In this document: positions 1 through 17,694 of the stretch, piece after piece
Layout of the letters: each line of letters begins with the position of its first letter
How positions within the stretch are numbered: the first letter of the stretch is position 1
Assembly (NCBI RefSeq): GCF_001677475.2
Contig: NZ_CP015229.1
Length of the DNA stretch: 64,000 nucleotides
Reading direction: 5' to 3' (one strand)
Source of the DNA: Escherichia coli
GTDB taxonomy: Bacteria; Pseudomonadota; Gammaproteobacteria; Enterobacterales; Enterobacteriaceae
The notes under the pieces: model-generated
The model's input: the letters and a program-made list of their open reading frames with translations, nothing else
What the model was told of the DNA's origin: nothing
Database searches by the model: none
Program-made: the position numbers and the translations under genes

Positions 1-290
1 AGCGGATCAATACAGGGCTGGTCAGGGAGAGCAAACAGGGGAAGTTTTACGCCAAATTTAATGCCGGAGCATTGTTGCGTGGCGACATGAAATCCCGCTT
101 TGAAGCGTATGCCACGGGGATCAACTGGGGTATTTATTCCCCTAATGACTGCCGTGATCTGGAAGATATGAATCCCCGACCGGGCGGTGATGTGTATCTG
201 ACACCGATGAACATGACCACCAGTCCCTCTGCTGGCGATGACAACGGTAAGAAAAAGGAGAGTGGAGATGCAGACAAAACAGCGTCTTGA
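1..290 (+). CDS. Phage portal protein, C-terminal end (5' part outside window)
   Basis: Open frame running in from the window edge and ending just upstream of, and overlapping, the prohead protease start. Position matches HK97-type portal-protease-capsid order; the family call rests on synteny more than on recognised motifs. Confidence 0.5.
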   Translation, partial: RINTGLVRESKQGKFYAKFNAGALLRGDMKSRFEAYATGINWGIYSPNDCRDLEDMNPRPGGDVYLTPMNMTTSPSAGDDNGKKKESGDADKTAS

Positions 291-918
291 TATACCGCTG
301 AACCTGAAATCCGTCAGTGATTCTGGTGAGTTTGAAGGTTACGGCTCTGTTTTTGGTGTTAAGGACAGCCACGATGATGTGGTGATCCCCGGAGCCTTTA
401 CCACAACACTCCAGAAATGGAGCGAAAAAAAGGCGCTGCCTGCGTTGCTCTGGCAGCACCGTATGGATGAGCCCATCGGTGTGTACACCGAAATGAAAGA
501 AGATGATGTCGGGCTTTATGTCAGGGGGCGATTACTCGTTGATGATGATCCCCTGGCAAAACGTGCACATGCCCATATGAAGGCCGGTTCTTTAACCGGC
601 CTTTCTATTGGCTACATCCTGAAAGACTGGGAGTACGACCGTGAAAAAGGGGTATTCCTGCTGAAAGAGATCGACCTGTGGGAGGTCAGTCTGGTGACGT
701 TTCCTTCCAATGATGAGGCACGCATCAGCGATGTGAAAAATGCGCTGGCGCGTGGGGAGATCCCTGAGCAGAAAATCATTGAGCGGGTCCTGCGCGATGT
801 TGGACTCTCGCGAACCCAGGCCAAAGCATTCATGGCAGGGGGATATGGCGCTTTATCCCTGCGTGATGCTGAGGATGTGGATGCCGCACTGAATGCACTG
901 AAAAATCTTAAATTTTAA
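268..918 (+). CDS. Phage prohead protease (HK97 family, peptidase U35-like)
   Basis: ORF 238..918 with probable start at ATG 268 (MQTKQRL) after GGAGAGTGGAG RBS. Sits directly upstream of the major capsid gene; sequence resembles HK97-type prohead proteases. Confidence 0.75.
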   Translation: MQTKQRLDIPLNLKSVSDSGEFEGYGSVFGVKDSHDDVVIPGAFTTTLQKWSEKKALPALLWQHRMDEPIGVYTEMKEDDVGLYVRGRLLVDDDPLAKRAHAHMKAGSLTGLSIGYILKDWEYDREKGVFLLKEIDLWEVSLVTFPSNDEARISDVKNALARGEIPEQKIIERVLRDVGLSRTQAKAFMAGGYGALSLRDAEDVDAALNALKNLKF

Positions 919-1779
919 CCAGGAGAAAAATAATGGCTGACATTAAAGATGTGGAGCAGGTCGCGCAGGAGTTGCAGCAGAAGTTTGACGATTTTAAGGC
1001 AAAAAACGACAAGCGCATTGACGCGATCGAACAGGAAAAAGGCAAGCTGGCCGAACAGGTGGAAAGCCTGAACGGGCAAATCAGCGAGCTGGAGAACCTG
1101 AAAAGCGACCTGGAAAAAGAGCTGGCAGACATCAAGCGTCCGGCAGGCGGCACGCAAAATAAAGTTGCCAGTGAACACAAAGAAGCGTTTATCGGATTTA
1201 TGCGCAAGGGGCGTGAAGACGGCCTGCGTGAGCTGGAGCGTAAGGCGCTGCAGGTGGGCAATGATGAAGATGGCGGTTATGCCATTCCGGAGGAACTGGA
1301 TCGCACCATTCTGACGCTACTGAAAGATGAGGTGGTGATGCGCCAGGAAGCCACCGTGATCACCCTCGGTGGCTCGGATTATAAAAAACTGGTGAATCTG
1401 GGCGGCACAGCGTCCGGATGGGTGGGGGAAACGGATGCACGTCCAGAAACCGCCACATCAAAACTGGGTCTGATTGAACCCTTTATGGGGGAAATCTACG
1501 GCAATCCGCAGGCCACCCAGAAAATGCTCGATGATGCTTTCTTCAATGTGGAAGACTGGATCAACAGTGAGCTGGCGCTGGAATTTGCCGAACAGGAAGA
1601 AATTGCCTTTACCAGTGGCGACGGCAGCAAAAAACCAAAAGGTTTTCTGGCTTACGAGTCCACCGATGAAGATGACAAGACCCGTGTATGAGACGACAAT
1701 AACTCAGTCCGCCTGGCGCCGATTATTCTGGCCGGTTTTGTAACCTGAGTGTCATTTACATGATCCAACAGGAAATGGC

Positions 1780-3279
1780 GTGACGCTCAATACTTCTCAG
1801 GTCAGTTACTATATGACTCAGCGTAAGAAAGGTATAACTCAGCATATCTCGGCCATGAAGGCTGGTATCTCAGTCCGTTCTGGTCGTCGGATCGAAAAAG
1901 GAGAGTGGGCAAAAAACAGTGTTCGGCACTGGCGCACACGCAAAGATCCTCTGGAAGCTGTGTGGGACAGCATGCTTGTTCCTCTGTTGAAAGAGAGGCC
2001 GGCTCTGACACCAACAACTCTACTGGAGATGCTACAGGATAAATATCCCGGCCAGTACCCCAACAGCCTTCGAAGAACAATGCAACGGCGGGTTCGCGAA
2101 TGGAAACTACAGTATGGTACAGAGCAGGAGGTCATGTTCCGCCAGCAACATCAGCCCGGCCTGCGAGGCCTGTCGGACTTTACTGAACTGAAAGGTGTAG
2201 TTGTCACCATCGCCGGTAAGTTGTTGGCGCATAAGTTGTATCACTTCCGTCTGGAATGGAGCCACTGGAGCTGGATGCGGGTTGTTCTGGGTGGTGAGAG
2301 CTTCTCTGCTCTGGCTGAAGGCCTGCAGGAAGCCCTCGGACAACTGGGCGGAGTGCCGGTAGAACATAAAACGGACAGCCTGAGGGCAGCATGGAAACAA
2401 CAGGGCGAAGATGGACGCCGCGAGCTGACTGAGCGTTATGCTACTCTCTGTCAGCACTACGGAATGCAGGGCGTACACAATAATGCCGGTCGGGGCCACG
2501 AAAATGGCTCGGTTGAAAGTGCCCACGGACATCTGAAAAGGCGTATCTGTCAGGCGCTGATACTGCGGGGCAGTAACGACTTCAGCACCATAGAAGAATA
2601 TCAGGCCTTCATCACTCAGCAGGTTATGCGGCACAACCGTAACAATCAGGATCTGGTCAAGGAAGAACGTCTTCATCTGAAACCGCTGCCGCTTCGTCGC
2701 AGTGCTGACTATGATGAGCTGACTGTGAGGGTTAGTCGCAGCAGTACCATCAATGTGAAGCACGTCGTCTACAGCGTACCTTCCCGGCTTGTAGGTCAAC
2801 TGTTACGGGTCAGGTTATGGGACGATCGTCTGAGCTGTTACGTTGGCAGCAGCGAGGTCATGAGCTGCCCTCGCGTCAGACCAGAAAAAGGGAAGACGCG
2901 GGCCCGTCGTATCGACTTCCGACATGTGATCGACAGTCTGGCAAAAAAGCCCGGTGCGTTCTGCCATGCAACGCTGAGAAATGACATCCTGCCGGACGAT
3001 GAATGGCGGAGGCTGTGGCGTCGCTTATGTAATCATCTGGAGCCCGATATGGCAGGAAGGCTGATGGTACATGCCCTGAAACTGGCTGCAGGATACGACG
3101 ATATCTCAGTCGTGGCAAAAGGTATGGAGCAGATGCTGAATACCCCGGGAAACGTGGATCTGCACCGGCTGATGCGCTTCCTGGGTATAAAAGAAAAGGC
3201 GTTGCCGGTAGTCAATGTGATACAGCATAACCTGAGCAGTTATGAGCAACTACTGCGTGGCAAGGGAGGTTCGCAGTGA
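1780..3279 (+). CDS. istA: IS21-family transposase IstA
   Basis: 499-aa ORF directly upstream of and overlapping the IstB-like gene; GTG start at 1780, alternative ATG at 1813. Confidence 0.75.
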   Translation: MTLNTSQVSYYMTQRKKGITQHISAMKAGISVRSGRRIEKGEWAKNSVRHWRTRKDPLEAVWDSMLVPLLKERPALTPTTLLEMLQDKYPGQYPNSLRRTMQRRVREWKLQYGTEQEVMFRQQHQPGLRGLSDFTELKGVVVTIAGKLLAHKLYHFRLEWSHWSWMRVVLGGESFSALAEGLQEALGQLGGVPVEHKTDSLRAAWKQQGEDGRRELTERYATLCQHYGMQGVHNNAGRGHENGSVESAHGHLKRRICQALILRGSNDFSTIEEYQAFITQQVMRHNRNNQDLVKEERLHLKPLPLRRSADYDELTVRVSRSSTINVKHVVYSVPSRLVGQLLRVRLWDDRLSCYVGSSEVMSCPRVRPEKGKTRARRIDFRHVIDSLAKKPGAFCHATLRNDILPDDEWRRLWRRLCNHLEPDMAGRLMVHALKLAAGYDDISVVAKGMEQMLNTPGNVDLHRLMRFLGIKEKALPVVNVIQHNLSSYEQLLRGKGGSQ

Positions 3280-4031
3280 GCAATATCCATCACCTTGAAC
3301 ATAGCCTGCGTAAACTACGCCTGACACGAGTTGGAGCTGAATGGCACGCTCTGGAAAAACGAGCGCTGGCAGAAGGCTGGACACCATCGCGCTATCTTCT
3401 GACGCTATGCAATGAAGAACTCCTGTGGCGCGAGAGTGAAAAACTGCGTCGTTATAAAAAGGAGGCCCGGTTGCCAGTTGCCAAAACGCTGAGCGAATAC
3501 GACTTCAGTCAGGTGCCGGAACTGAATGGAGCTCAGTTCCGGCAACTCTGTGAAACGACAGACTGGGTTGATGCAGGAGAAAACGTTCTGCTGTTCGGAG
3601 CCAGCGGGTTGGGGAAAAGCCATCTGGCGGCAGCGATCGTGGATGGCGTAGTAGGTCAGGGCTACCGGGCCCGGTTCTACAGCGCAGGAGAGCTGTTGCA
3701 GGAACTACGTAAAGCCAGAGCTCAGTTGAAACTGAATGAGCTGCTACTGAAACTGGATCGCTACCGGGTGATAGTGGTGGATGATCTTGGCTATGTCAAA
3801 CGCGATAGTGCCGAAACGGGTGTGCTGTTCGAGTTAATAGCGCATCGCTATGAACGTGGGAGCCTGGTGATAACCAGTAACCATCCGTTCAGCATGTGGG
3901 GCAGCATCTTCGTGGATGAGACTATGGCGGTGGCTGCGGCAGACAGGCTGATCCATCACGGATATATGTTCGAACTGAAAGGGGAAAGCTACAGGAAAAA
4001 GACAGCGAAGGCAGTAACAAGCGCGACTTGA
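3276..4031 (+). CDS. istB: IS21-family helper ATPase IstB
   Basis: 251-aa ORF with P-loop GASGLGKSHLAAA and a DnaA/IstB-like AAA+ layout (Walker B-like VIVVDDLGY). Confidence 0.85.
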   Translation: MSNIHHLEHSLRKLRLTRVGAEWHALEKRALAEGWTPSRYLLTLCNEELLWRESEKLRRYKKEARLPVAKTLSEYDFSQVPELNGAQFRQLCETTDWVDAGENVLLFGASGLGKSHLAAAIVDGVVGQGYRARFYSAGELLQELRKARAQLKLNELLLKLDRYRVIVVDDLGYVKRDSAETGVLFELIAHRYERGSLVITSNHPFSMWGSIFVDETMAVAAADRLIHHGYMFELKGESYRKKTAKAVTSAT

Positions 4032-4616
4032 TGTCGCCCTGAAGGGTGCGGCCAGTATAGTTGGCGCGAGTCGGCAAAACTAGTTGACGTCTAATACCCG
4101 TGCGTTTGGCAAACTTCAGCACATTGCTTCCGGTGCGGCTTCCGGCGTGACTACCGATGCGATCATTAAACTGATTTACACCCTGCGCAAGGCGCACCGC
4201 AGCGGCGCGAAGTTCATGATGAACAACAGCAGCCTGTTTGTCATTCGTCTGCTGAAGGATAACGACGGAAATTATCTGTGGCGTCCGGGTATTGAGCTGG
4301 GGCAGCCTTCTTCACTGGCGGGGTATGGCATCGTTGAGAATGAGCAGATGCCGGATATTGCTGCCGATGCAAAAGCTATTGCGTTTGGTAACTTCAAACG
4401 CGGCTATACCATCGTTGACCGCATCGGTACCCGTATCCTGCGCGATCCGTACACCAACAAACCGTTTGTGGGCTTTTATACCACCAAACGAACCGGCGGT
4501 ATGCTGGTGGATTCTCAGGCGATTAAGCTGATGAAGATCGGTGCTGCAACCCGCCAGAAAGCCGCTGAGTAATGCAGTTTTTTATGCCCGCACAGTATTG
4601 CGGGCAGGAGTTTCTG

Positions 4617-4934
4617 ATGGCAGCAATAGTGGAAAAACTCAGGGCGCAGTGCCGTATTGATACAGATGATGCAACTGATGATGAGTTACTGATGCTGTAT
4701 TTCCGGGCTGCCTGCCGCAAGGCAGAAAATTTTATCAACCGTAAGCTTTATGAGGAGACGGTGCCGGAGGGGGATCCAGAAGGGGTGCTTATAGCTGATG
4801 ATGTTTTGCTGGCGCTTATGTTGCTGGTCGGACACTGGTACGAAAACAGGGAAAATTCCTCAGATGTCAGCAAGGCACCAATCCCGTTTGGTTTTTCTTC
4901 TCTGCTGGAGCCTTATCGTTTTATTCCTTTGTAG
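4617..4934 (+). CDS. Head-tail connector / DNA-packaging protein (phage gp6-like)
   Basis: ORF 4572..4934 with probable start at ATG 4617 after AGGAG; small acidic protein directly downstream of the capsid gene. Confidence 0.6.
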   Translation: MAAIVEKLRAQCRIDTDDATDDELLMLYFRAACRKAENFINRKLYEETVPEGDPEGVLIADDVLLALMLLVGHWYENRENSSDVSKAPIPFGFSSLLEPYRFIPL

Positions 4935-4942
4935 GAGGAACC

Positions 4943-5281
4943 ATGCAGGCGGGCAGATTACGTGATCGCGTAATTATTCTGAATGTCACCACCGCCCGCT
5001 CTCCGTCAGGGCATCCGGTGGAGACGGTGACGGAGGGAGCTACCGTATGGGCAGAAGTTAAGGGTATCAGCGGGAGGGAGATAATCTCAGGCGGAGCAGA
5101 AACCGCTCAGGCTACGGTCAGAGTCTGGATGAGATTCCGGCGCGATGTGACAGCGACTTCACGTCTGAAAGTGCTGACCGGTGCATTTAAAGGGGCAATT
5201 CTGGGTATAGAAGGTCCACCAATACCGGATGCACGCGCTACCCGGCTTGAAATACTCTGCAGCCTGAAGGGGAATGTGTGA
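4943..5281 (+). CDS. Head-tail adaptor / head closure protein
   Basis: 112-aa ORF following the gp6-like gene with RBS AGGAGG; conserved position in HK97-like head modules. Confidence 0.6.
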   Translation: MQAGRLRDRVIILNVTTARSPSGHPVETVTEGATVWAEVKGISGREIISGGAETAQATVRVWMRFRRDVTATSRLKVLTGAFKGAILGIEGPPIPDARATRLEILCSLKGNV

Positions 5282-5727
5282 TGGATTTCAGTCTTGATTT
5301 TTCAGGTCTGGCGGATATTGCACGGGATCTGGAGACGCTCAGCAGGGCAGAAAACAATAAGGTACTGCGCGATGCCACCCGTGCCGGTGCTGAAGTTATG
5401 CGGGATGCAGTTGCTGAACGTGCGCCGGAGCGAACCGGGAAACTGAAGAAAAATGTGGTTGTTCTCACTCAGCGTTCAAAGCGTCGGGGGGAAATTATCT
5501 CGGGTGTCCACATTCGTGGACGGAACCCGCGAACCGGAAACAGTGATAACAGCATGAAAGCCAGCGATCCCCGAAATGCGTTTTACTGGCGCTTTGTGGA
5601 GCTGGGAACGATAAACATGCCCGCGCATCCGTTCATTCGCCCGGCATTCGACACGACAGAGGAACTGGCAGCACAGATTGCCATACAGCGAATGAATCAG
5701 GCTATTGATGAGGTCTTAAGTAAATGA
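5278..5727 (+). CDS. HK97 gp10-like phage protein (tail completion / neck)
   Basis: 149-aa ORF with ATGA start/stop overlap to the upstream gene; N-terminal MMDFSLDFSGLADI resembles the HK97 gp10 family. Confidence 0.6.
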   Translation: MMDFSLDFSGLADIARDLETLSRAENNKVLRDATRAGAEVMRDAVAERAPERTGKLKKNVVVLTQRSKRRGEIISGVHIRGRNPRTGNSDNSMKASDPRNAFYWRFVELGTINMPAHPFIRPAFDTTEELAAQIAIQRMNQAIDEVLSK

Positions 5728-6068
5728 GGGAGACCGCACTGTATTCCCTGCTGTCTCAACTGGCCGGAGGACAGGTTTATCCTTATGTGGTCCCGCTGAC
5801 GGAGGGAAAGCCTGCGGTATCTCCGCCGTGGCTGGTGTTTTCTGTGGTGTCTGACACGGCGTCTGATGTGCTTGATGGTCAGGCTGAATCAAGAATTACC
5901 GTGCAGATCGATGTCTGGGCAACAGTACCTGATGACGCAGATGATATCCGTGAGCAGGCGCTTGATGCGGTAAGGCAACTTGCACCCTCCGTTATTTCTA
6001 AAACTCAGGGTTATGATCCTGATTCCCGTCTGAGCAGAGCCACGCTTGAATTTCAGGTAATAGCCTGA
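5724..6068 (+). CDS. Tail terminator / DUF3168-like tail component
   Basis: 114-aa ORF, translationally coupled, located just before the major tail protein gene. Confidence 0.5.
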   Translation: MRETALYSLLSQLAGGQVYPYVVPLTEGKPAVSPPWLVFSVVSDTASDVLDGQAESRITVQIDVWATVPDDADDIREQALDAVRQLAPSVISKTQGYDPDSRLSRATLEFQVIA

Positions 6069-6127
6069 GGTCGTTAATGATTTTACCCACCCGCCGCTGG
6101 CGGGTTTTTTATTTTCAGGAGACGAGT

Positions 6128-6832
6128 ATGTCCTCTAATTTTGAGCGTTCGCAACTGACGAAAATTATGATTTCGTCTGCACCGGTAACAGCAGAAACCT
6201 TGGATTCTGCCAGCTATCTTGGCCTGAGCTGTACAATCAAAGAGGTGCAGTTTACCGCAGGACAAAAGCAGGATATTGATGTCACCACGCTGTGTTCTGT
6301 TGAGCAGGAACATATTAACGGCCTTGGTGCCGCGTCAGAGATTTCCATGTCAGGCAACTTTTACCTCAATGCTGCCCAGAACGCGTTGCGCAGTGCCTAT
6401 GACAATGACACCACGTATGGCTTTAAAGTTATTTTTCCGTCAGGCAACGGATTTACCTTTATGGCAGAGGTGCGTCAGCATACCTGGTCTGCAGGAACCA
6501 ATGGTGTTGTGGCTGCAACGTTTTCCCTGCGCCTGAAAGGTAAACCTGTGCTGACGACAGAGCCGCTGAAAGTGAAGGTCGATTTAAACAGCACGCTGCA
6601 GGTTTCTGCCGGAGCAAAACTCGAAATGGTGGTTGAGGCTGCCGGTGGTGTGCCGCCTTATTCTTATGTCTGGAAGAAAGGTGGTTCTCCTGTTTCCGGA
6701 CAGACGGCGGCAACGTTCAGTAAGGCATCAGCAGCATCCGGTGATGCCGGTGCGTATACCTGCGAGATTTCTGATTCAGCAAGCCCTGTTAACAAGGTGA
6801 CCTCCACTTCCTGCACTGTTACCGTCAGTTAA
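6128..6832 (+). CDS. Major tail protein with C-terminal Ig-like (Big_2-like) domain
   Basis: ORF 6077..6832 with probable start at ATG 6128 after AGGAGACGAG. The C-terminus has an Ig-like decoration domain as in lambda gpV. Confidence 0.7.
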   Translation: MSSNFERSQLTKIMISSAPVTAETLDSASYLGLSCTIKEVQFTAGQKQDIDVTTLCSVEQEHINGLGAASEISMSGNFYLNAAQNALRSAYDNDTTYGFKVIFPSGNGFTFMAEVRQHTWSAGTNGVVAATFSLRLKGKPVLTTEPLKVKVDLNSTLQVSAGAKLEMVVEAAGGVPPYSYVWKKGGSPVSGQTAATFSKASAASGDAGAYTCEISDSASPVNKVTSTSCTVTVS

Positions 6833-7218
6833 TGAGGATAGATGTGATGACTAAAAATATCCGTAATCTGGCACTGGCAACGATGTCGGGGTTTCGTCAT
6901 AAAACCGTTGATGTGCCTGAATGGGAAGGAGCAACGGTTGTGTTACGGGAACCTTCTGCAGAAGCCTGGTTGCGCTGGCAGGAGATCGTTAAAGCCAGGG
7001 AAGATGATACATCGCCATCCGTTGCAGAGCGTGCCCGCCGAAATCTTGAGGCGGACGTTGAACTGTTCATTGATGTTCTGTGTGATACCGGGCTGCAACC
7101 CGTATTTTCAGAGGATGATCGTGAACAGGTGATTGCCGTGTATGGCCCGGTGCATGCCCGACTTCTTCGCCAGTCTCTGGAACTGATCAGTGGTGCCGGA
7201 GAGGTTAAAAAAAAGTAG
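6832..7218 (+). CDS. Tail assembly chaperone (gpG-like)
   Basis: Lies between the major tail and tape measure genes and ends ...GEVKKK* on an A-run. Alternative start ATG 6847 has a better RBS (GAGGA). Confidence 0.75.
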   Translation: MRIDVMTKNIRNLALATMSGFRHKTVDVPEWEGATVVLREPSAEAWLRWQEIVKAREDDTSPSVAERARRNLEADVELFIDVLCDTGLQPVFSEDDREQVIAVYGPVHARLLRQSLELISGAGEVKKK

Positions 7219-7520
7219 CGCTTCCGGGGATGCGTTTTCTGATGATGCTGGCGCTCAGGATGGGGCGCACATTGTCAGAGTTACGCCGGGAAATGTCCGC
7301 ATCAGAAATCATGATGTGGGCAGAATTTGACAGGTTCAGCCCGCTGGGGGACGAACGGGCTGATATCCGGGCTGCCCAGATTGTTTCAGCTGTTTACGGT
7401 GCGCAGGGAGTCAAAGTGCCACTGAATGATGCACTTCTTCAGTGGGAGAAGGAGCAGACAGAAGGTGCCTCAGATCCATTTGCCGGAATGGAAAACGCGC
7501 TTTTAATAGTGTCTCAGTGA
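7209..7520 (+). CDS. Tail assembly chaperone -1 frameshift extension (gpT-like part of the G-T fusion)
   Basis: The -1 frame is open from 7209 through the ORF 7230..7520 and is entered at the slippery heptamer A AAA AAG (7209-7215). Confidence 0.7.
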   Translation, partial: KKVALPGMRFLMMLALRMGRTLSELRREMSASEIMMWAEFDRFSPLGDERADIRAAQIVSAVYGAQGVKVPLNDALLQWEKEQTEGASDPFAGMENALLIVSQ

Positions 7521-7560
7521 GTCAACATAACCGCTTCGGCGGTTTTTTTTCGTCCGGAGA

Positions 7561-10500
7561 ATGAGTGTGGCGACATTACGTGAACTGATTATTAAAATCT
7601 CGGCAAACTCCCGGTCCTTCCAGTCGGAGATCGCCCGGGCTTCGCGTATGGGGCAGGATTACTACCGCACCATGCAGAACGGAGGCCGACAATCCGCTGC
7701 TGCATCACGTGAAATGCGGCGTGCACTGGCAGAAGTGACGGATCAGATAAATACGGCGAAGTCTTCGGCACTGAATATGGCGGGGGCATTTGCCGGGGCT
7801 TTTGCCACCGGACATCTTATTTCCCTTGCTGATGAGTGGAATTCAGTAAATGCCCGTCTGAAACAGGCTACGCAATCCAGTGATGATTTTCAGGCATCAC
7901 AACGTGAATTAATGGCAATCAGCCAGAGAACGGGGACGGCTTTTTCAGATAACGCCAGTCTTTTTGCCCGCTCTGCTGCTTCCATGCGGGAGTATGGCTA
8001 CAGTTCTGAGGAGGTACTGAAAGTCACCGAGGCGATCTCCACGGGCCTGAAATTATCCGGTGCCAGTACAGCAGAAGCCAGTTCGGTGATCACGCAGTTC
8101 AGCCAGGCACTGGCGCAGGGAGTGCTGCGCGGTGAAGAGTTTAACGCCGTGAATGAGAGCGGTGATCGTGTTATTCGTGCGCTGGCTGCGGGAATGGGCG
8201 TTGCCCGTAAGGATCTGAAGGCTATGGCGGATGATGGAAAGCTGACCGCCGATAAGGTTGTTCCTGCGTTGATTAGTCAGCTTGGGGCGTTGCGTGATGA
8301 ATATGCAGCAATGCCTGATACGGTTTCATCCTCTGCAACCAAAGTTGAAAACGCCTTTATGGCCTGGGTTGGTGGTGCGAACGAGGCAAGCGGAGTGACG
8401 AAGACGCTTTCCGGAGTGCTGAATGGTGTTGCAGGCAATATTGATACCGTTGCAACCGCTGCCGGTGCTCTGGTTGCCGTCGGGGTAGCCCGATATTTGG
8501 GCAATATGGCGTCTTCTGCTGGAGCTGCAACTGCCGGATTAATTACCGCAGCCAGAAACGAAGTGGCTCTTGCGGAAGCGCAGCTCCGGGGAACACAGAT
8601 AGCAACAGCCAGGGCGCGTGCGGCGGTTTATCGTGCGCAACAGGCGGTTGCGGCTACCCGTGGTACTGAAAGGCAGGCAGCCGCAGAAGCGAAACTGGCT
8701 GCTGCCCAGGCGTCACTTACCCGTAATATTGCGGCCAGAACAGCAGCACAGACAACGCTGAATACTGTCACGTCAGTGGGGAGTCGTCTGTTAAGTGGGG
8801 CACTGGGGCTGGTTGGTGGTGTGCCGGGGCTTGTCATGCTGGGGGCTGCGGCCTGGTACACGATGTATCAGAATCAGGAGCAGGCCAGAGAATCTGCACG
8901 CCAGTATGCCGCAACAATCGACGAAATTCGCCAGAAAACGTCGGCAATGTCGCTTACTGAAGCGTCAGATAATGAGGAAAAGACGCGACAGGCACTGAAG
9001 GAGCAGAACAGGTTAATTGACGAGCAGAAAAGTAAGATTAAATCCTTACAGGAAAAAATTGCTGGCTATCAGTATGTGCTGGCAAACCCGGGCTGGACAA
9101 CCGATAACGGTTTTATGATTAACCACATGACGTCGGTAAAAACTGTCACAGAAGGGCTTGCAGAAGCAACAAATCAACTGGCAGTTGAACAGTCTCGCCT
9201 CACTCAAATGCAGGGCAAAGCGCAATCCATTCAGGATGTGCTTGCCGGGCTGGAGGAGCGACGGGTGGCGTTGATCCGTCAACAGGCGGCGGAACAAAAT
9301 AAAGCGTATCAGTCCCTGTTGATCATGAATGGGCAGCATACCGAGTTTAATCGTCTTCTCGGGCTTGGTAATGAGTTACTTCAGCAGCGTCAGGGGCTGG
9401 TGAATGTACCATTACGACTGCCACAGGCCACCCTGGATGATAAACAGCAGAATGCGCTGAATAACAGCGAGCGCGAACTGGCTCTGTCCCGCCTGAAGGG
9501 GGAAGCCCGTGAGCGTGCCCGACTGGGTTATGCTGCGGATGATCTCGGCTTTGTGGGAGAGGCGTATCAGACAGCCAGACAGAATTATATCAATAACTCA
9601 CTGGATGCCTGGCGAAATAACCAGGCAAATAAACCCAAAGCGCATAAAAAGACCGAAGCGGAAAAAACAGAAGATATTTATAAACGGCTGATTAAACAGC
9701 AGAAAGAGCAGATAGCACTGGCAGGGCAGAATACTGAACTGGCTAAGATGAAATATCAGGTCAGTCAGGGCGAATTATCAACCCTGTCAGAAGCGCAGAA
9801 AAAAACGCTTTTGCAGAATGCAGCACTCATCGACCAGAAAAAGATTCGTGAGCAGCTTGCTGCGTATGAGAGCAGTCTGGCGGACAGTAATGCCAGTGCC
9901 CGGGCATCTGACGAAGCGCAGTTGCTGGGATATGGTGAAGGCTCACGGATGCGTGAACGACTCCAGGAAATGTGGAGTATCCGGCAGACGTTTGAGCAGA
10001 AAAATAACGAGCTGCTGAGACAGTATCAGGCCGGAGAAATTGAAGAAGCCCTGTGGAAACAGGAGAAAGAACTGAATAAAAAATATCTGGAAGAGCGTCT
10101 CGGCGATCAGCAGGATTATTATGCAAAGGCTGATGCTTTACGCAGTAACTGGAATGCCGGACTCCAGGAGGGACTGACCAACTGGGCAGACAGTGCCACC
10201 GATTATGCTTCACAGGCGGCAGATGCTGTCGTTTCCACGATGGACGGGCTGGTATCAAATATTTCCGATGCACTGGCCGGAAATGTTGTGGACTGGAGAA
10301 ACTGGGGGAGTTCAATTCTCCAGGAAGTTTCAAAAATTCTGATGAACGCTGCCATCGTTAACGGGCTGAAGTCACTTTCCAAAAGCATGTCCGGTGCCGG
10401 AGGATGGCTTGGTACGGTCGGCGACTGGCTTTCCGGTGCAGTGGCAAACGCAAAAGGTGGTGTTTATACATCGGCAAATCTGAGTGCTTACAGTAACACC

Positions 10501-10806
10501 ATTGTGGATACCCCGACGTATTTTGCTTTTGCGAAAGGTGCCGGGCTGATGGGCGAGGCAGGGCCTGAAGCTATCATGCCACTGACTCGGGCAGCGGACG
10601 GCTCTCTTGGAGTCAGAGCCATTGGCAATGTGAATGGTGGCGGTGGATTTGTTTATTCTCCCGTGTATCACATCAGTATTCAGAATAAAGGGAGCAATGG
10701 CGAGATAGATACGCAGTCAGCCAGGGGGCTGGTGGATCTGATCGACAGCAGGGTTGTGTCAATTATGCAGTCATCACGTCGGGACGGAGGATTATGCAGT
10801 GCCTGA
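7561..10806 (+). CDS. Tail tape measure protein
   Basis: 1081-aa ORF directly after G/GT. Ala/Gln-rich, coiled-coil-like, with a Gly-rich C-terminal region. Confidence 0.9.
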   Translation: MSVATLRELIIKISANSRSFQSEIARASRMGQDYYRTMQNGGRQSAAASREMRRALAEVTDQINTAKSSALNMAGAFAGAFATGHLISLADEWNSVNARLKQATQSSDDFQASQRELMAISQRTGTAFSDNASLFARSAASMREYGYSSEEVLKVTEAISTGLKLSGASTAEASSVITQFSQALAQGVLRGEEFNAVNESGDRVIRALAAGMGVARKDLKAMADDGKLTADKVVPALISQLGALRDEYAAMPDTVSSSATKVENAFMAWVGGANEASGVTKTLSGVLNGVAGNIDTVATAAGALVAVGVARYLGNMASSAGAATAGLITAARNEVALAEAQLRGTQIATARARAAVYRAQQAVAATRGTERQAAAEAKLAAAQASLTRNIAARTAAQTTLNTVTSVGSRLLSGALGLVGGVPGLVMLGAAAWYTMYQNQEQARESARQYAATIDEIRQKTSAMSLTEASDNEEKTRQALKEQNRLIDEQKSKIKSLQEKIAGYQYVLANPGWTTDNGFMINHMTSVKTVTEGLAEATNQLAVEQSRLTQMQGKAQSIQDVLAGLEERRVALIRQQAAEQNKAYQSLLIMNGQHTEFNRLLGLGNELLQQRQGLVNVPLRLPQATLDDKQQNALNNSERELALSRLKGEARERARLGYAADDLGFVGEAYQTARQNYINNSLDAWRNNQANKPKAHKKTEAEKTEDIYKRLIKQQKEQIALAGQNTELAKMKYQVSQGELSTLSEAQKKTLLQNAALIDQKKIREQLAAYESSLADSNASARASDEAQLLGYGEGSRMRERLQEMWSIRQTFEQKNNELLRQYQAGEIEEALWKQEKELNKKYLEERLGDQQDYYAKADALRSNWNAGLQEGLTNWADSATDYASQAADAVVSTMDGLVSNISDALAGNVVDWRNWGSSILQEVSKILMNAAIVNGLKSLSKSMSGAGGWLGTVGDWLSGAVANAKGGVYTSANLSAYSNTIVDTPTYFAFAKGAGLMGEAGPEAIMPLTRAADGSLGVRAIGNVNGGGGFVYSPVYHISIQNKGSNGEIDTQSARGLVDLIDSRVVSIMQSSRRDGGLCSA

Positions 10807-11140
10807 GTCTGAAGTTTTTAACTGGATCCCCCGCGAGGGGATGGAGACGACACGAAAGCCATCTGTTATTACGGTAAAGTTCGGTGACGGATATGAACAG
10901 CGACGGGCTGGTGGTCTGAATGCAGATCTGAAAACGTTTAAACCGGTATTTCGTGTCACGGATGAATATTCCCGTGCCGCGCTGGACAGTTTTTTATCCC
11001 GTCATGCCGGGATGCGTGCTTTTTTGTGGCGTCCGCCAAAATATAACAGGACCGTCCGGGTTGTCTGCAGGGAGTGGAGTATTTCGGATAATGCCATGTA
11101 TACCGATTTTAACTGTACCTTTGAAGAGGTCACTCACTGA
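10754..11140 (+). CDS. Minor tail protein (lambda gpM-like)
   Basis: Shares motifs with lambda M (VKFGDGYEQR, FLWRPP). The true start may be GTG 10799, which would avoid the 50-bp overlap with the tape measure gene. Confidence 0.8.
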   Translation: MCQLCSHHVGTEDYAVPESEVFNWIPREGMETTRKPSVITVKFGDGYEQRRAGGLNADLKTFKPVFRVTDEYSRAALDSFLSRHAGMRAFLWRPPKYNRTVRVVCREWSISDNAMYTDFNCTFEEVTH

Positions 11141-11838
11141 TGCAGGATATACAGCAGGAAACACTCAATGAGTGCACTAAATCGGAGCAATCCGCGCTGG
11201 TCGTGCTCTGGGAAGTCGATCTGACGGAGGTCGGCGGAGATCGTTATTTCTTCTGTAATGAGCAGAACGAAAAAGGTGAACCAGTCACCTGGCAGGGGCG
11301 GCAGTATCAGGCGTACCCCATTCAGGGGAGCGGCTTTGAGATGAACGGTAAGGGCAGCAGCGCACGTCCCACACTTAAGGTATCTAACCTGCACGGCATG
11401 GTCACCGGTATGGCGGAAGACCTGCAGAGTCTGGTCGGCGGAACGGTGGTCAGGCGTAAGGTTTACGCCCGTTTTCTGGATGCGGTGAACTTCGTCAACG
11501 GAAACAGTGACGCCGATCCGGAGCAGGAGGTGATCAGCCGCTGGCGCATCGAGCAGTGCAGCGAACTGAGCGCTGTCAGTGCCTCTTTTGTACTGTCCAC
11601 ACCGACTGAAACGGATGGTGCTGTTTTTCCGGGGCGCATCATGCTGGCTAATACCTGCACCTGGACCTATCGCGGTGATGAGTGCGGTTATAACGGTCCG
11701 GCGGTCGCGGATGAATATGATCAGCCGACGTCCGATATCACGAAGGATAAATGCAGCAAATGCCTGAGTGGCTGTAAGTTTCGCAATAACCTCGGCAACT
11801 TTGGCGGTTACCTTTCCATCAACAAACTTTCGCAGTAA
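11140..11838 (+). CDS. Minor tail protein (lambda gpL-like)
   Basis: 232-aa ORF with a C-terminal Cys cluster (CSKCLSGC); position and size match lambda L. Confidence 0.85.
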   Translation: MQDIQQETLNECTKSEQSALVVLWEVDLTEVGGDRYFFCNEQNEKGEPVTWQGRQYQAYPIQGSGFEMNGKGSSARPTLKVSNLHGMVTGMAEDLQSLVGGTVVRRKVYARFLDAVNFVNGNSDADPEQEVISRWRIEQCSELSAVSASFVLSTPTETDGAVFPGRIMLANTCTWTYRGDECGYNGPAVADEYDQPTSDITKDKCSKCLSGCKFRNNLGNFGGYLSINKLSQ

Positions 11839-11842
11839 TCCC

Positions 11843-12586
11843 ATGACAGAGACAGAATCAGCGATTCTGGCGCACGCCCGGCGATGTGCGCCAGCGGAGT
11901 CGTGCGGCTTCGTGGTGAGAACGCCGGAAGGGGAAAGATATTTTCCCTGCGTGAATATCTCCGGTGAGCCGGAGGAGTATTTCCGGATGGCTCCGGAGGA
12001 CTGGCTGCGGGCAGAAATGCAGGGTGAGATTATGGCGCTGGTCCACAGCCACCCCGGTGGTCTGCCCTGGCTGAGTGAGGCCGACCGGCGGTTGCAGGTG
12101 CAGGGTGATTTGCCATGGTGGCTGGTCTGCCGGAGAGCGATTCACAAGTTCCGCTGTGTGCCGCATCTTACCGGGCGGCGCTTTGAGCACGGGGTGACGG
12201 ACTGTTACACGCTGTTCCGGGATGCTTACCATCTGGCGGGGATTGAGATGCCGGATTTTCATCGTGAGGATGACTGGTGGCGTCACGGTCAGAATCTCTA
12301 TCTGGATAATCTGGAGGCCACGGGGCTGTATCAGGTGCCGCTGTCAGCGGCGCAGCCGGGCGATGTGCTGCTGTGCTGTTTTGGTTCATCGGTACCGAAT
12401 CATGCAGCCATTTACTGCGGTGATGGCGAGCTGCTGCACCATATTCCTGAACAACTGAGCAAACGAGAGAGGTATACCGACAAATGGCAGCGACGCACAC
12501 ACTCCCTCTGGCGTCACCGGGCATGGCACGCATCTGCCTTTACGGGGATTTACAACGATTTGGCCGCCGCATCGACCTTCGTGTGA
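11843..12586 (+). CDS. Tail assembly protein K (lambda gpK-like; MPN/JAB plus NlpC/P60 domains)
   Basis: ORF 11768..12586 with start at ATG 11843 (MTETES). Contains a JAMM-like HSHPGG motif. Confidence 0.85.
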   Translation: MTETESAILAHARRCAPAESCGFVVRTPEGERYFPCVNISGEPEEYFRMAPEDWLRAEMQGEIMALVHSHPGGLPWLSEADRRLQVQGDLPWWLVCRRAIHKFRCVPHLTGRRFEHGVTDCYTLFRDAYHLAGIEMPDFHREDDWWRHGQNLYLDNLEATGLYQVPLSAAQPGDVLLCCFGSSVPNHAAIYCGDGELLHHIPEQLSKRERYTDKWQRRTHSLWRHRAWHASAFTGIYNDLAAASTFV

Positions 12587-13131
12587 AAACGGGGGCTGAA
12601 GCCATCCGGGCACTGGCCACGCAGATCCCCGCATTTCGACAGAAACTGAATGAGGGCTGGTATCAGGTGCGCATTGCAGGGCGTGATGCAGGTGAAACCG
12701 AATTATCTGCCCGTCTTAATGAGCCGCTGGCAAATGGTGCCGTGATCCACATCGTACCGCGTCTGGCGGGTGCCAAAAGTGGCGGTATTTTTCAGGCGGT
12801 GCTGGGGGCGGCGCTGATTGCGGTGGCATGGTGGAACCCTGTGGGCTGGCTGGGTGCCGCGGCTGTATCGGGCATGTATGCGGCAGGGGCCAGTATGATC
12901 CTGGGCGGAGTGGCGCAGATGCTGGCACCGAAAGCCAGGACGCCCACGGCAGCAAGTACAGATAACGGCAAACAGAACACCTATTTCTCCTCACTGGATA
13001 ACATGGTTGCCCAGGGCAATGTTCTGCCCGTTCTGTACGGTGAAATGCGCGTGGGGTCGCGGGTGGTCTCTCAGGAGATCAGCACGGCAGACGAAGGGGA
13101 TGGTGGTCAGGTTGTGGTGATTGGTCGCTGA
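12484..13131 (+). CDS. Tail assembly protein I (lambda gpI-like)
   Basis: 215-aa ORF overlapping the end of K, with a hydrophobic Gly/Ala-rich C-terminal half as in gpI. Alternative start ATG 12523. Confidence 0.8.
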   Translation: MAATHTLPLASPGMARICLYGDLQRFGRRIDLRVKTGAEAIRALATQIPAFRQKLNEGWYQVRIAGRDAGETELSARLNEPLANGAVIHIVPRLAGAKSGGIFQAVLGAALIAVAWWNPVGWLGAAAVSGMYAAGASMILGGVAQMLAPKARTPTAASTDNGKQNTYFSSLDNMVAQGNVLPVLYGEMRVGSRVVSQEISTADEGDGGQVVVIGR

Positions 13132-13190
13132 TGAAAAACGTTTATGTGAAACCGCCTCCGGGCGGTTTTGTCGTTTATGGAGCGTGAGGA

Positions 13191-16100
13191 ATGGGTAAAG
13201 GCAGCAGTAAGGGGCATACTCCGCGCGAAGCGAAGGACAACCTGAAGTCCACGCAGTTGCTGAGTGTGATCGATGCCATCAGCGAAGGGCCGGTTGAAGG
13301 TCCGGTGGATGGATTAAAAAGCGTGCTGCTGAACAGTACGCCAGTGCTGGACAGTGAGGGGAATACCAATATCTCCGGCGTCACGGTGGTGTTCCGGGCC
13401 GGTGAGCAGGAGCAGACACCGCCGGAGGGATTTGAATCCTCTGGCTCCGAGACGGTGCTGGGTACGGAAGTGAAATACGACACGCCGATCACCCGGACCA
13501 TCACGTCGGCAAACATTGACCGACTGCGTTTTACCTTCGGCGTGCAGGCACTGGTGGAAACCACCTCAAAGGGGGACAGGAATCCGTCGGAAGTCCGCCT
13601 GCTGGTTCAGATCCAGCGTAATGGTGGCTGGGTGACGGAAAAAGACATCACCATTAAGGGCAAAACCACCTCGCAGTATCTGGCCTCGGTGGTGGTGGGT
13701 AACCTGCCGCCGCGCCCGTTCAATATACGGATGCGCAGGATGACGCCGGACAGCACCACAGACCAGCTGCAGAACAAAACGCTCTGGTCGTCATACACCG
13801 AAATCATCGATGTGAAACAGTGCTACCCGAACACGGCACTGGTCGGCGTACAGGTGGATTCGGAGCAGTTCGGCAGCCAGCAGGTGAGCCGTAATTATCA
13901 TCTGCGCGGGCGCATTCTGCAGGTGCCGTCGAACTATAACCCGCAGACGCGGCAATACAGCGGTATCTGGGACGGAACGTTTAAACCGGCATACAGCAAC
14001 AACATGGCCTGGTGTCTGTGGGATATGCTGACCCATCCGCGCTACGGCATGGGGAAACGTCTTGGTGCGGCGGATGTGGACAAATGGGCGCTGTATGTCA
14101 TCGGCCAGCATTGCGATCAGTCGGTGCCGGACGGTTTTGGCGGCACGGAGCCGCGCATCACCTGTAATGCGTACCTGACCACACAGCGCAAGGCGTGGGA
14201 TGTGCTCAGTGATTTCTGCTCTGCGATGCGCTGTATGCCGGTATGGAACGGGCAGACGCTGACGTTCGTGCAGGACCGACCGTCGGATAAGGTGTGGACC
14301 TATAACCGCAGTAATGTGGTGATGCCGGATGATGGTGCGCCGTTCCGCTACAGCTTCAGCGCCCTGAAGGACCGCCATAATGCCGTTGAGGTGAACTGGA
14401 TTGACCCGAATAACGGCTGGGAGACGGCGACAGAGCTTGTGGAGGACACGCAGGCCATTCTCCGTTACGGTCGTAACGTCACGAAGATGGATGCCTTTGG
14501 CTGTACCAGTCGGGGGCAGGCACACCGCGCCGGGCTGTGGCTGATTAAAACAGAACTGCTGGAAACGCAGACCGTGGATTTCAGCGTCGGCGCAGAAGGG
14601 CTTCGCCATGTGCCGGGCGATGTTATTGAAATCTGCGATGATGACTATGCCGGTATCAGCACCGGCGGGCGCGTGCTGGCGGTGAACAGCCAGACCCGGA
14701 CGCTGACGCTCGACCGTGAAATCACGCTGCCATCCGCCGGCACCACGCTGATAAGCCTGGTTGACGGAAGTGGAAATCCGGTCAGCGTGGAGGTTCAGTC
14801 CGTCACCGATGGCGTGAAGGTAAAAGTGAGCCGTGTTCCTGACGGCGTTGCAGAATACAGTGTGTGGGGGCTGAAGTTGCCGACGCTGCGCCAGCGCCTG
14901 TTCCGCTGTGTGAGTATCCGTGAGAATGACGACGGCACGTATGCCATCACCGCCGTGCAGCATGTACCGGAAAAAGAGGCCATCGTGGATAACGGGGCGC
15001 ACTTTGACGGCGACCAGAGCGGCACGGTGAATGGTGTCACGCCGCCCGCGGTGCAGCACCTGACCGCCGAAGTCACCGCAGACAGCGGGGAATATCAGGT
15101 GCTGGCGCGCTGGGACACGCCGAAGGTGGTCAAGGGTGTGAGCTTCCTGCTTCGCCTGACCGTGGCAGCGGATGACGGCAGTGAGCGGCTGGTCAGCACA
15201 GCCCGGACGACGGAAACCACATACCGCTTCAGGCAGCTGGCGCCAGGAAATTACAGTCTGACGGTCCGGGCGGTAAATGCCCGGGGACAGCAGGGGGATC
15301 CGGCGTCGGTATCGTTCCGGATTAACGCCCCGGCAGCGCCTGCCACAATTGAACTGATACCGGGGTATTTTCAGATAACGGCGGTCCCGCGTCTTGCGGT
15401 GTATGACCCGACGGTGCAGTTTGAGTTCTGGTTCTCGGAAAATCAGATTACGGATATCCGGCAGGTTGAAACCACAGCCCGCTATCTCGGTACGGCGATG
15501 TACTGGACAGCTGCCAGTATTAATATCAGGCCGGGCCATGATTATTACTTTTATATCCGCAGTGTGAACATCGTCGGTAAATCAGCGTTTGTGGAAGCTG
15601 TTGGCCAGCCGGTTAATGATGCTGAGGTGTATCTCAATTTTTTTGAAGGGAAAATAAACAGCACCCTGCTGGGACAGGAGCTGAACGATCGTATTAATGC
15701 CTCGGCATTGCGCAGTGAAGTTGAGCAACTGGAGGATGAGATCAATCAGCAGATAGAGAGTGATATTGCTGAAGTGACCCAAAAAATCGGGGAGACAGAA
15801 AACAGCCTCACACAGCTGGTTGCGAAAAAAAATGATGAGCTGTCACTGGGTATATCACAGGTGAGCCAGAGAGTGGATAACGTCAGCAGCGAACTCACGC
15901 AGACGGTCAGTCAGAGTAATGAGGAGAATGCACGCCAGATAGCGCAGGTTCGCCAGTATGTGGATCAAAAAAGCAGTGAAATCATGACGACAACGGACCA
16001 AAAGCTGGGAGATCAGGAGGCCACCATCCAGCAGATACAAAAGGTTCAGACGGACACCAGTAATAACCTGAACAGTATGTGGGCCGTGAAACTGCAGCAG

Positions 16101-16445
16101 ATGCAGGATGGTCGCCTTTATATTGCGGGTATCGGTGCCGGTATTGAGAATACCCCTGACGGTATGCAGAGCCAGGTGCTGCTGGCGGCAGACAGGATTG
16201 CGATGGTTAATCCTGCGAATGGTAATACAACACCCTTGTTTGTGGCTCAGGGGGATCAGCTGTTCCTGAATGAGGTTTTCATGTCCAGGGCGACGATTGA
16301 TTTTGCGGAAATTACGGGGGTTCTTCGTTCTTCGGGATTTGAAGTCAGGGGACAGGGAGGCTGGGATCTGAGCCGGGAACTGAACTGCTTCAGGGTCGAT
16401 GATGAAAACAATGTCATTCGGGTGAGAATGGGCAGGTTACTCTGA
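13191..16445 (+). CDS. Host specificity / tail tip protein J (central tail fibre)
   Basis: 1084-aa ORF after K and I. Conserved gpJ-like N-terminal two-thirds, fibronectin-like middle region, and a divergent coiled-coil C-terminus. Confidence 0.9.
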
Positions 16446-16454
16446 GGAGCGAAT

Positions 16455-17614: not shown

Positions 17615-17665
17615 GTGCTGTAACGAAATCACGGCAAAATGAAACAGAAAATCTGAATGTAATCA

Positions 17666-17694
17666 CAGCCCGCCGGAACCGGCGGGCTTTTTTG
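17666..17694 (+). terminator. Rho-independent terminator (GC stem-loop plus T-run)
   Basis: GCCCGCCGG-AACC-GGCGGGC followed by TTTTTTG. Confidence 0.7.

What the first reader, a model, noticed from the sequence alone, without database searches (positions are those of the whole stretch)
1687..4095. IS21-family element inserted in the major capsid gene with a 7-bp target duplication
The capsid ORF is split exactly at the IS borders and ACCCGTG is present on both flanks. Deleting the IS plus one repeat copy restores a continuous capsid frame (...DKTR-AFGK...), so this is a precise insertion that should block virion production. The rest of the late operon looks intact, suggesting recent inactivation.
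Basis: seen in the sequence. Interest (0 to 1): 0.6.

Follow-up and report, generated by a model that had tools for sequence, protein, structure and literature searches.

The report
ISEc10 splits a prophage capsid gene
A known E. coli jumping gene (ISEc10, IS21 family) has very recently landed inside the head-protein gene of a resident prophage; this is an ordinary way for a prophage to be disabled, made slightly more interesting because the same prophage carries a satellite element that makes its own heads.

Summary
A 2,410-bp IS21-family element, 98.5-99.9% identical to annotated ISEc10 copies, splits an HK97-type major capsid gene. Removing it and one repeat copy restores a 407-aa capsid that matches the HK97 capsid model end to end and is 403/407 identical to an intact E. 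coli prophage capsid.

One correction: nine ISEc10 copies all end ...CGTCTAATA. So the element is 1687..4096 and the target duplication is 6 bp (CCCGTG), not 7 bp.

The insertion is very recent. Three other assemblies match both flanks exactly and carry the uninterrupted gene. None of 5,426 complete E. coli genomes has this junction.

All 17 late genes downstream are full length, or in one case a known allele.

Upstream of the window, in the same genome, the prophage's large-terminase gene is split by a 15.4-kb satellite. It is a helper-embedded, capsid-forming PICI with its own capsid, protease, portal, connector, HNH and terminase genes.

The IS should abolish helper heads. Published helper-capsid knockouts suggest the satellite could still spread using the intact tails; this is untested here.

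This is a known element doing a known thing. Interest is low.

The parts
3..290 (+). 3' end of the helper prophage portal gene (last 95 codons); the window starts inside it
   Evidence: tblastn, 100% to portal residues 319-413 of the L011 protein
268..918 (+). HK97-family prohead protease gene, intact
   Evidence: 216/216 aa aligned, 99%
933..1691 (+). 5' capsid fragment. It encodes 251 native residues plus V and a stop codon supplied by the IS left end (252-aa truncated product)
   Evidence: This exact 252-aa product is on record in 4 public contigs
1681..1686 (.). left copy of the 6-bp target-site duplication CCCGTG
   Evidence: a single copy in empty sites
1687..4096 (+). ISEc10 (IS21 family), 2,410 bp, in the same orientation as the late operon
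   Evidence: 98.5-99.9% identity over its full length to annotated ISEc10 copies; ends fixed by comparing 9 copies
1687..1734 (.). left terminal inverted repeat (imperfect): TATGAGACG... plus an inner block GCGCCGATTATTCTGGCCG
   Evidence: I1, 71% complementary over 52 nt; gapped alignment
1780..3279 (+). istA, transposase, 499 aa, GTG start. Candidate DDE residues are D133, D199 and E246, assigned by motif only
   Evidence: NF033546, 226 bits, cutoff 160, profile 2-293 of 294. 4 of 499 aa differ from the CFT073 copy
3276..4031 (+). istB, AAA+ helper ATPase, 251 aa. Its GTG start overlaps the istA stop (GTGA). Walker A is GASGLGKS and Walker B is VIVVDD
   Evidence: NF038214, 267 bits; PF01695, 1e-61; IS5376 IstB structures 8Q3W and 5BQ5, E 4e-45
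4049..4096 (.). right terminal inverted repeat, ending ...CGTCTAATA
4097..4102 (.). right copy of the 6-bp target-site duplication CCCGTG
4097..4572 (+). 3' capsid fragment (residues about 250-407), with no start codon or ribosome-binding site of its own
   Evidence: tblastn, 98.7% to residues 251-407; sequence read
4617..20400 (+). downstream helper late genes: head-tail connector, head closure, gp10-like, gp17-like, major tail, G/T chaperones, tape measure, M, L, K, I, J (variant C-terminus), two unknown ORFs, tail fibre and fibre assembly
   Evidence: each aligns over its full length to the intact relative L011. The J variant plus two ORFs is an allele found at over 99% identity in 6 complete genomes and passes the lambda_TipJ cutoff
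20540..20627 (-). tRNA-Ser(tga) at the prophage's right boundary, followed by hyaA and chromosomal genes

Best explanation
One intact copy of the catalogued insertion sequence ISEc10 (IS21 family; istA transposase plus istB AAA+ helper) transposed into codon 251/252 of the HK97-type major capsid gene of a lambdoid prophage integrated next to tRNA-Ser (serT).

Shown:
- The element occupies 1687..4096, with imperfect terminal inverted repeats and a 6-bp duplication of CCCGTG.
- The capsid gene is split into a 252-aa truncated product and a 3' fragment with no start.
- The empty site exists in sequence-identical relatives.

Inferred from established IS21-family biochemistry: IstA, recruited and regulated by IstB bound to target DNA, made cuts staggered by 6 bp. 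Gap repair then produced the duplication.

Inferred consequence: the helper phage cannot build heads, because the lost C-terminal 156 residues carry much of the HK97 fold. Precise reversal is very unlikely, because an IS has no excision system that restores the target.

The downstream connector and tail genes are intact and have their own ribosome-binding sites. No convincing terminator lies on the + strand of the IS. Q-antiterminated late transcription probably still reaches them.

In the same genome, 1.9 to 17.3 kb upstream of the window, a 15.4-kb helper-embedded, capsid-forming PICI sits in the prophage's terL. It encodes its own capsid, protease, portal, connector, HNH, TerS and TerL. The net effect may therefore be loss of helper virions only.
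For: - Identity of the element.
- Ends and duplication. Other copies carry 5-7-bp duplications, most often 6 bp.
- Restored capsid: full-length TIGR01554 match; 403/407 aa to WP_088167443 and 391/407 to phiP27 L40, with a single ACCCGTG at the site; one continuous alignment across the junction to 6TB9.
- Real, not an assembly artefact: the junction is in an IMG/VR contig that spans the whole IS, in NCBI GCA_002516285.1 and in a Logan assembly.
- Recent: GCA_013053565.1, GCA_038037405.1 and SRR7788569 are 100% identical over window 1-1686 and 4097-5170 and carry an uninterrupted capsid. 0 of 5,426 complete E. coli genomes carry the junction.
- ISEc10 is active: de novo insertions were recovered in CFT073 (PMC7482066). 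The window's IstA and IstB differ from the CFT073 proteins at 4 and 1 residues.
- Downstream genes are intact. There are no terminator-like sites above chance.
- Upstream satellite. Literature: PMC10111431 and bioRxiv 10.1101/2022.09.08.507074.
Against: - Nothing here is experimental.
- The ends are 5'-TA...TA-3', not the TG...CA usual in the IS21 family.
- Pfam finds no rve domain in IstA, only Mu-transpos_C_2 at 2e-7. No solved IstA matches by sequence. The DDE assignment therefore rests on motifs and the NCBIfam model.
- One paper gives 2,530 bp for an ISEc10 insertion (PMC8764528), against 2,409-2,410 bp in the nine copies compared here.
- Polarity of the IS on tail-gene expression was not measured.
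- The early region of the prophage (repressor, integrase, replication) was not examined.
Confidence: 0.93

Rival explanations
1. Tail-donor reading. The insertion does not end the mobility of the composite. It removes only the helper's heads. The embedded capsid-forming PICI still excises, packages itself into its own small capsids and uses the helper's intact tails. The disabled prophage then serves the satellite and no longer competes with it.
For: - The full 15.4-kb PICI is in the same genome, with all genes called.
- Its late genes pass the HK97 capsid, protease, portal, connector and TerS models.
- Its gene order (capsid, protease, portal, connector, hnh, terS, terL) and its size match proteobacterial cf-PICIs.
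- The doubled TGTATTGC motif specific to HE-PICIs is present at the published distances.
- A helper HK106 capsid knockout abolished phage transfer but not cf-PICI transfer, while tail knockouts abolished both.
- Connector and tail genes downstream of the IS are intact.
- Helper Q, lysis, HNH and terS ORFs upstream are open and of normal length.
Against: - It is untested for this satellite-helper pair.
- The IS may reduce tail-gene expression.
- Whether this prophage induces its embedded PICI is unknown.
- The insertion is in only a few assemblies, so there is no sign of selection for it.
Confidence: 0.3
2. Old lesion in a long-decaying prophage. The IS is one of many disabling mutations and says nothing about recent activity.
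For: terL is also interrupted, and the early region was not inspected.
Against: - Flanks are identical to empty-site relatives over about 2.8 kb.
- All 17 downstream late genes are full length.
- The terL interruption is a site-specific integrase-borne element with an 8-bp core. Published HE-PICIs of this kind excise precisely.
- The IS ORFs are intact, and the IS is 99.9% identical to other copies.
Confidence: 0.04
3. The duplication is 7 bp (ACCCGTG) and the IS is 2,409 bp (1687..4095).
For: ACCCGTG is literally present on both sides. 7 bp is within the family's range. One other copy (L004) has a 7-bp duplication even with the A assigned to the IS.
Against: All nine copies have A after ...TAAT. 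Four of them (L003, L005, L006, L007) have G, T, T or C at the matching left-flank position. The A therefore travels with the element.
Confidence: 0.04
4. Assembly artefact: a repeat-induced misjoin placed an IS inside the capsid gene.
For: Draft contigs break at this IS.
Against: - Both junctions carry an exact target duplication.
- Independent assemblies (NCBI, Logan, IMG/VR) share the left junction. One contig spans the whole element, at 100% identity over 5,427 nt.
Confidence: 0.01

Closest known systems
ISEc10 (IS21 family), as annotated in E. coli CFT073 and many other genomes
   Same: Same length (2,410 bp) and same termini. Nucleotide identity is 98.5% to the CFT073 copy and 99.9% to copies in strain OkiPb01695. 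IstA is 495/499 and IstB 250/251 identical to the CFT073 proteins. De novo transposition has been documented in CFT073 (PMC7482066).
   Different: Only the insertion site differs. This junction is absent from 5,426 complete E. coli genomes and from the GTDB species representatives.
IS21 and IS5376 (type and structurally studied IS21-family members)
   Same: Two-gene istA/istB layout with overlapping stop and start. The IstB AAA+ protein resembles IS5376 IstB structures at E 4e-45. The long imperfect inverted repeats have inner repeat blocks, and the duplication is short.
   Different: The termini end in TA rather than the usual CA. IstA is too divergent for a sequence hit to solved structures or to Pfam rve.
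IS-inactivated lambdoid prophages of E. coli, for example IS629 insertions in O157 prophages (from my own knowledge, not checked here)
   Same: An IS lands in a prophage morphogenesis gene and leaves an otherwise intact-looking prophage.
   Different: A different IS family. Here the prophage also hosts an embedded satellite.
Helper-embedded PICIs (Tommasini, Mageeney and Williams 2023, PMC10111431), site A:Terminase_1:245/246
   Same: The upstream element sits in terL in the same orientation as the late genes. It has int, alpA, Bro-N and replication zones and an 8-bp crossover core. The doubled TGTATTGC motif lies about 80 bp before attR and about 140 bp after attL.
   Different: It lies outside the window and is not part of the IS. 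It interrupts a late gene by reversible site-specific integration, whereas the IS insertion is effectively irreversible.
Capsid-forming PICI EcCIEDL933 (bioRxiv 10.1101/2022.09.08.507074)
   Same: 15.4 kb; int, alpA and rep genes; late-gene order capsid, protease, portal, connector, hnh, terS, terL; no tail genes.
   Different: Sequence identity to EcCIEDL933 was not measured. The paper reports that cf-PICIs use six chromosomal attB sites in E. coli. This one is embedded in its presumed helper.

Membership tests
IS21 family | istA gene encoding the family's DDE transposase | tested here: met
   NF033546 transpos_IS21, 226.4 bits against a cutoff of 160, covering profile 2-293 of 294. Motifs SDFT, KTD and SVE give candidate residues D133, D199 and E246. 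Pfam rve was not detected.
IS21 family | istB gene just downstream, encoding an AAA+ helper ATPase with Walker A and B motifs | tested here: met
   NF038214, 266.7 bits against a cutoff of 200; PF01695, 1e-61; IS5376 IstB structures, E 4e-45; GASGLGKS and VIVVDD motifs; istA stop and istB start overlap as GTGA.
IS21 family | Terminal inverted repeats of 11-50 bp, often with inner repeated blocks | tested here: met
   52-nt arms, 71% complementary (I1). The gapped alignment shows a terminal block TAT-AGACG and an inner block GCGCC..TAT.CTGGCC.
IS21 family | Termini generally end in 5'-CA-3' (a usual feature, not an absolute one) | tested here: not met
   Both ends finish ...ATA-3' in all nine copies. 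The rule is recalled from family descriptions as 'generally', so this does not exclude membership.
IS21 family | Short target-site duplication (4-8 bp) | tested here: met
   6 bp here. Seven other copies have 5, 5, 6, 6, 6, 6 and 7 bp. One nested copy has none.
ISEc10 (same IS, isoform level) | Near-identity over the full length to the named element | tested here: met
   98.5-99.9% identity over 2,410 nt to copies that RefSeq annotates as ISEc10. The ISfinder reference itself could not be consulted.
HK97-family major capsid protein (the interrupted gene) | Full-length match of the restored ORF to the family model, with colinearity to intact homologues | tested here: met
   TIGR01554, E 1e-116, profile 2-385 of 385. 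One-piece DNA match at 97.8% over 1,224 nt. Alignment to 6TB9 over residues 80-399, across the junction.
Helper-embedded PICI (upstream element, outside the window) | Integrated within a prophage late gene in the same orientation; tyrosine integrase plus AlpA; doubled TGTATTGC motif about 81 bp upstream and about 132 bp downstream of the attP centre | tested here: met
   terL is split with an 8-bp overlap at L011 2426-2433. int, alpA, alpA and Bro-N follow in order. The motif is at L093 7092-7111, before attR at about 7180, and at L096 1240-1259, after attL at about 1102. Integrase-clade phylogeny was not done.
Capsid-forming PICI (upstream element) | Encodes capsid, protease, portal, connector, HNH, TerS and TerL in that order; has no tail genes; about 15 kb | tested here: met
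   (15,401 bp), compared with the description.
Capsid-forming PICI (upstream element) | Forms its own small capsids and depends on helper tails for transfer | not testable with these tools
   This needs induction, electron microscopy and transduction assays.

The most novel reading that the evidence does not exclude
The ISEc10 insertion acts as a natural helper-capsid knockout inside a helper-satellite composite. The prophage can no longer make its own heads, but it still supplies lysis, connectors and tails. On induction the strain would release only particles of the embedded capsid-forming PICI. That would be a spontaneous step towards a prophage kept as a tail donor for its satellite.
Probability: 0.3. 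Interest if true: 0.5.

Novelty: already known. Interest (0 to 1): 0.2.

Why it matters
In itself it matters little. IS knock-outs of prophage structural genes are a routine route to defective prophages, and ISEc10 is a catalogued, demonstrably active element.

It has two modest uses.

1. The insertion has sequence-identical empty-site relatives in public assemblies. It is therefore a clean, datable example of prophage inactivation.

2. It happens to reproduce in nature the helper-capsid knockout used to define capsid-forming PICIs, and it does so in a helper-embedded configuration. The strain and its empty-site relatives form a ready-made pair for testing whether an embedded cf-PICI survives loss of its helper's heads.

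Tried and rejected
- Pfam scan of IstA found no rve or HTH domain, only Mu-transpos_C_2. A sequence search of solved structures with IstA found nothing. Catalytic residues are therefore assigned by motif only.
- An exact-junction search of GTDB representative genomes found nothing, so the source organism could not be named that way.
- A search of 5,426 complete E. coli genomes with a 600-bp junction probe found no record covering the junction.
- A terminase-based search of IMG/VR returned 80 other prophages but not the source contig. The source was reached instead by exact junction patterns and by looking up the unique truncated 252-aa product.
- The promoter and terminator scan of 1500-4700 gave counts no higher than shuffled sequence. 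No claim is made about IS-borne promoters or terminators.
- The shorter gpJ (1,084 aa against 1,159 aa), with two extra ORFs in place of lom, was considered as a second lesion and rejected. The same arrangement occurs at over 99% identity in six complete genomes with gpJ annotated as intact, and it passes the TipJ cutoff.
- A second IS copy, or any other large repeat, was looked for in the window. None was found.
Full report
**What is in the sequence**

An ORF starting at 933 encodes 251 residues of a phage capsid protein. It then reads GTA TGA (V, stop) at 1687-1691. The capsid frame resumes downstream as ...NTRAFGK... and runs to 4572.

Between the two parts lie two same-strand ORFs: 1780..3279 (499 aa) and 3276..4031 (251 aa). 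They are bounded by imperfect inverted repeats, with arms 1683-1734 and 4049-4100 that are 71% complementary.

ACCCGTG occurs at 1680 and at 4096. Removing 1687..4095 and one ACCCGTG gives a 407-aa ORF.

**Identity of the inserted element**

- The 499-aa protein passes the curated IS21 transposase model (NF033546, 226 bits, cutoff 160, whole profile).
- The 251-aa protein passes the IstB helper-ATPase model (NF038214, 267 bits, cutoff 200). It also matches Pfam IstB_IS21 and the solved IS5376 IstB structures at E 4e-45.
- Walker A (GASGLGKS) and Walker B (VIVVDD) motifs are present. The istA stop overlaps the istB start as GTGA.
- Pfam does not detect an rve domain in IstA, and no solved IstA matches by sequence. 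Candidate DDE residues D133, D199 and E246 are therefore assigned by motif only.
- At the DNA level the element matches 560 E. coli records over at least 80% of its length. The listed full-length hits are 98.5-99.9% identical, and all are annotated 'IS21-like element ISEc10 family'.
- IstA and IstB differ at 4 and 1 residues from the CFT073 proteins. De novo ISEc10 insertions have been recovered experimentally in CFT073 (PMC7482066).
- The window holds no second copy and no other large repeat.

**Exact ends and target duplication**

I compared the window copy with eight others at unrelated sites.

- All nine begin TATGAGACG and end CGTCTAATA.
- In four copies (L003, L005, L006, L007) the left flank has G, T, T or C where an A would be needed if that last A belonged to the target.
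- The A is therefore part of the IS.
- The element is 1687..4096 (2,410 bp, all of which aligns between copies).
- The duplication is the 6-bp CCCGTG at 1681-1686 and 4097-4102.
- The other copies show duplications of 5, 5, 6, 6, 6, 6 and 7 bp. One nested copy has none.

The ends finish in TA rather than the CA usual for the family. One paper quotes 2,530 bp for an ISEc10 insertion (PMC8764528). I could not consult ISfinder to resolve either point.

**The interrupted gene**

- The restored 407-aa protein matches the HK97 major-capsid model over profile positions 2-385 of 385 (E 1e-116).
- It aligns in one stretch (residues 80-399, across the junction at 251/252) with the solved capsid 6TB9.
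- The restored DNA matches annotated 'phage major capsid protein' genes in one piece over 1,224 nt, at up to 97.8% identity. It matches phage phiP27 at 94.9%.
- Protein identity is 403/407 to the best E. coli prophage capsid and 391/407 to phiP27. Both carry a single ACCCGTG at the site.

**Is it real, and how old is it?**

- The left junction occurs in IMG/VR contig IMGVR_UViG_2721755653_000010. That contig is 100% identical to the window over 5,427 nt and spans the whole IS.
- The unique 252-aa truncated product is on record in four contigs, including NCBI GCA_002516285.1 and a Logan assembly. In the NCBI and Logan contigs fetched, the contig ends inside the IS. This suggests the IS is multi-copy in those genomes, which is an inference.
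- Three other assemblies (GCA_013053565.1, GCA_038037405.1, SRR7788569) are 100% identical to window 1-1686 and 4097-5170 and carry the uninterrupted gene.
- No complete E. coli genome out of 5,426 has the junction, and no GTDB representative has it.

The insertion is therefore genuine and very recent.

**Surroundings inside the window**

Compared with an intact relative (L011), these genes are all full length: the protease, head-tail connector, head-closure, gp10-like, gp17-like, major tail, chaperones, tape measure, M, L, K, I, tail fibre and fibre-assembly genes.

gpJ has a different C-terminus, and two unknown ORFs replace lom. The same allele occurs at over 99% identity in six complete genomes and passes the TipJ cutoff, so I do not count it as damage.

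The prophage ends beside tRNA-Ser(tga) at 20540-20627. The ordinary hya-app-etk-tor-cbpA-agp-wrbA-rut chromosome follows.

No terminator-like site above chance lies on the + strand of the IS. The connector gene at 4617 has its own AGGAG ribosome-binding site.

**Surroundings outside the window**

Walking upstream in the same genome showed that the prophage's terL is split at about codon 339 by a 15,401-bp element.

- Its genes run int, alpA, alpA, Bro-N, DUF4222, AAA_25 helicase, SSB, PerC, then HK97-type capsid, protease, portal, connector, HNH, TerS and TerL.
- The two prophage arms overlap by 8 bp of the intact terL.
- The doubled TGTATTGC motif reported as specific to helper-embedded PICIs is present about 80 bp before attR and about 140 bp after attL.
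- This matches the published helper-embedded PICI class, which includes a terminase site (PMC10111431).
- It also matches the gene order and 15.4-kb size of proteobacterial capsid-forming PICIs (bioRxiv 10.1101/2022.09.08.507074).
- The same arrangement with an intact helper capsid is common in public assemblies.
- In the source genome, ORFs of the size and position of the helper's RusA, Q, holin, lysozyme, Rz, HNH and TerS genes are open and unbroken; their names follow the Pfam families and annotations of the matching genes in related contigs.

**How it most likely works**

Shown: a precise ISEc10 insertion with a 6-bp duplication truncates the helper capsid.

Inferred from IS21-family biochemistry: IstA, with IstB bound to the target, made 6-bp staggered cuts.

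Inferred consequence: no helper heads can form, and reversal is practically impossible.

The embedded satellite, however, has its own head and packaging genes. In the published cf-PICI system, a helper capsid knockout abolished phage transfer but not satellite transfer. Tail knockouts abolished both. The tails here are intact, so the satellite may remain mobile. I put this at about 0.3, because IS polarity and this particular helper-satellite pair are untested.

**Verdict**

This is a known IS doing a known thing. The novelty class is 'already known' and the interest is low. The natural helper-capsid knockout in a helper-embedded cf-PICI composite is a small bonus.

Noticed in passing
outside the window, about 1.9 to 17.3 kb upstream of position 1 (L114 3956 to L093 7179; NCBI NJSK01000038.1): A 15.4-kb helper-embedded, capsid-forming PICI is integrated in the prophage's terL at about codon 339. 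It has an 8-bp crossover core and the doubled TGTATTGC motif. The terL N-terminal ORF is extended to 397 aa by PICI sequence.
   Followed up: yes
window 16296-17614: gpJ has a divergent C-terminus (1,084 aa against 1,159 aa; no match to L011 beyond residue 962). Two ORFs of unknown function (123 aa, phrog_2427; 269 aa, phrog_4062) replace lom. The same allele is in 6 complete E. coli genomes, including RM9088 and OkiPb01695, which also hold the closest ISEc10 copies.
   Followed up: partly
window 20400-20973: The prophage's right boundary abuts tRNA-Ser(tga) on the minus strand (20540-20627), just upstream of hyaA. The att core repeat was not mapped.
   Followed up: no
window 21000-45000: The chromosomal flank (hya, app, etk/gfc, torS) reaches only 98.3% identity to the best of 5,426 complete E. 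coli genomes. This suggests a lineage or local allele that is poorly represented there. The source organism was not identified.
   Followed up: no
L096 (GCA_038037405.1), at the positions matching L093 8463 and 6749-6770: The closest empty-site relative lacks one A inside the helper portal gene, and no portal gene is called there. It also lacks a 22-bp stretch between the PICI terL and attR. These could be a real frameshift or a homopolymer sequencing error.
   Followed up: no
L102 4599-5312 (minus strand), upstream helper region: A 237-aa ORF sits between Q and the lysis genes of the helper prophage; the same-length ORF at this position in two related contigs carries AraC-type HTH Pfam families (HTH_18). 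It looks like a cargo ('moron') gene.
   Followed up: no
L062 (IMG/VR prophage): A related prophage capsid matches in two overlapping pieces (residues 2-238 and 233-405). This suggests an independent frameshift in that copy.
   Followed up: no
L008 (E. coli WP2-S18-ESBL-08): This ISEc10 copy has no flanking duplication. It sits beside another IS21-like istB and has a frameshifted istB of its own. This looks like nested or rearranged IS copies.
   Followed up: no
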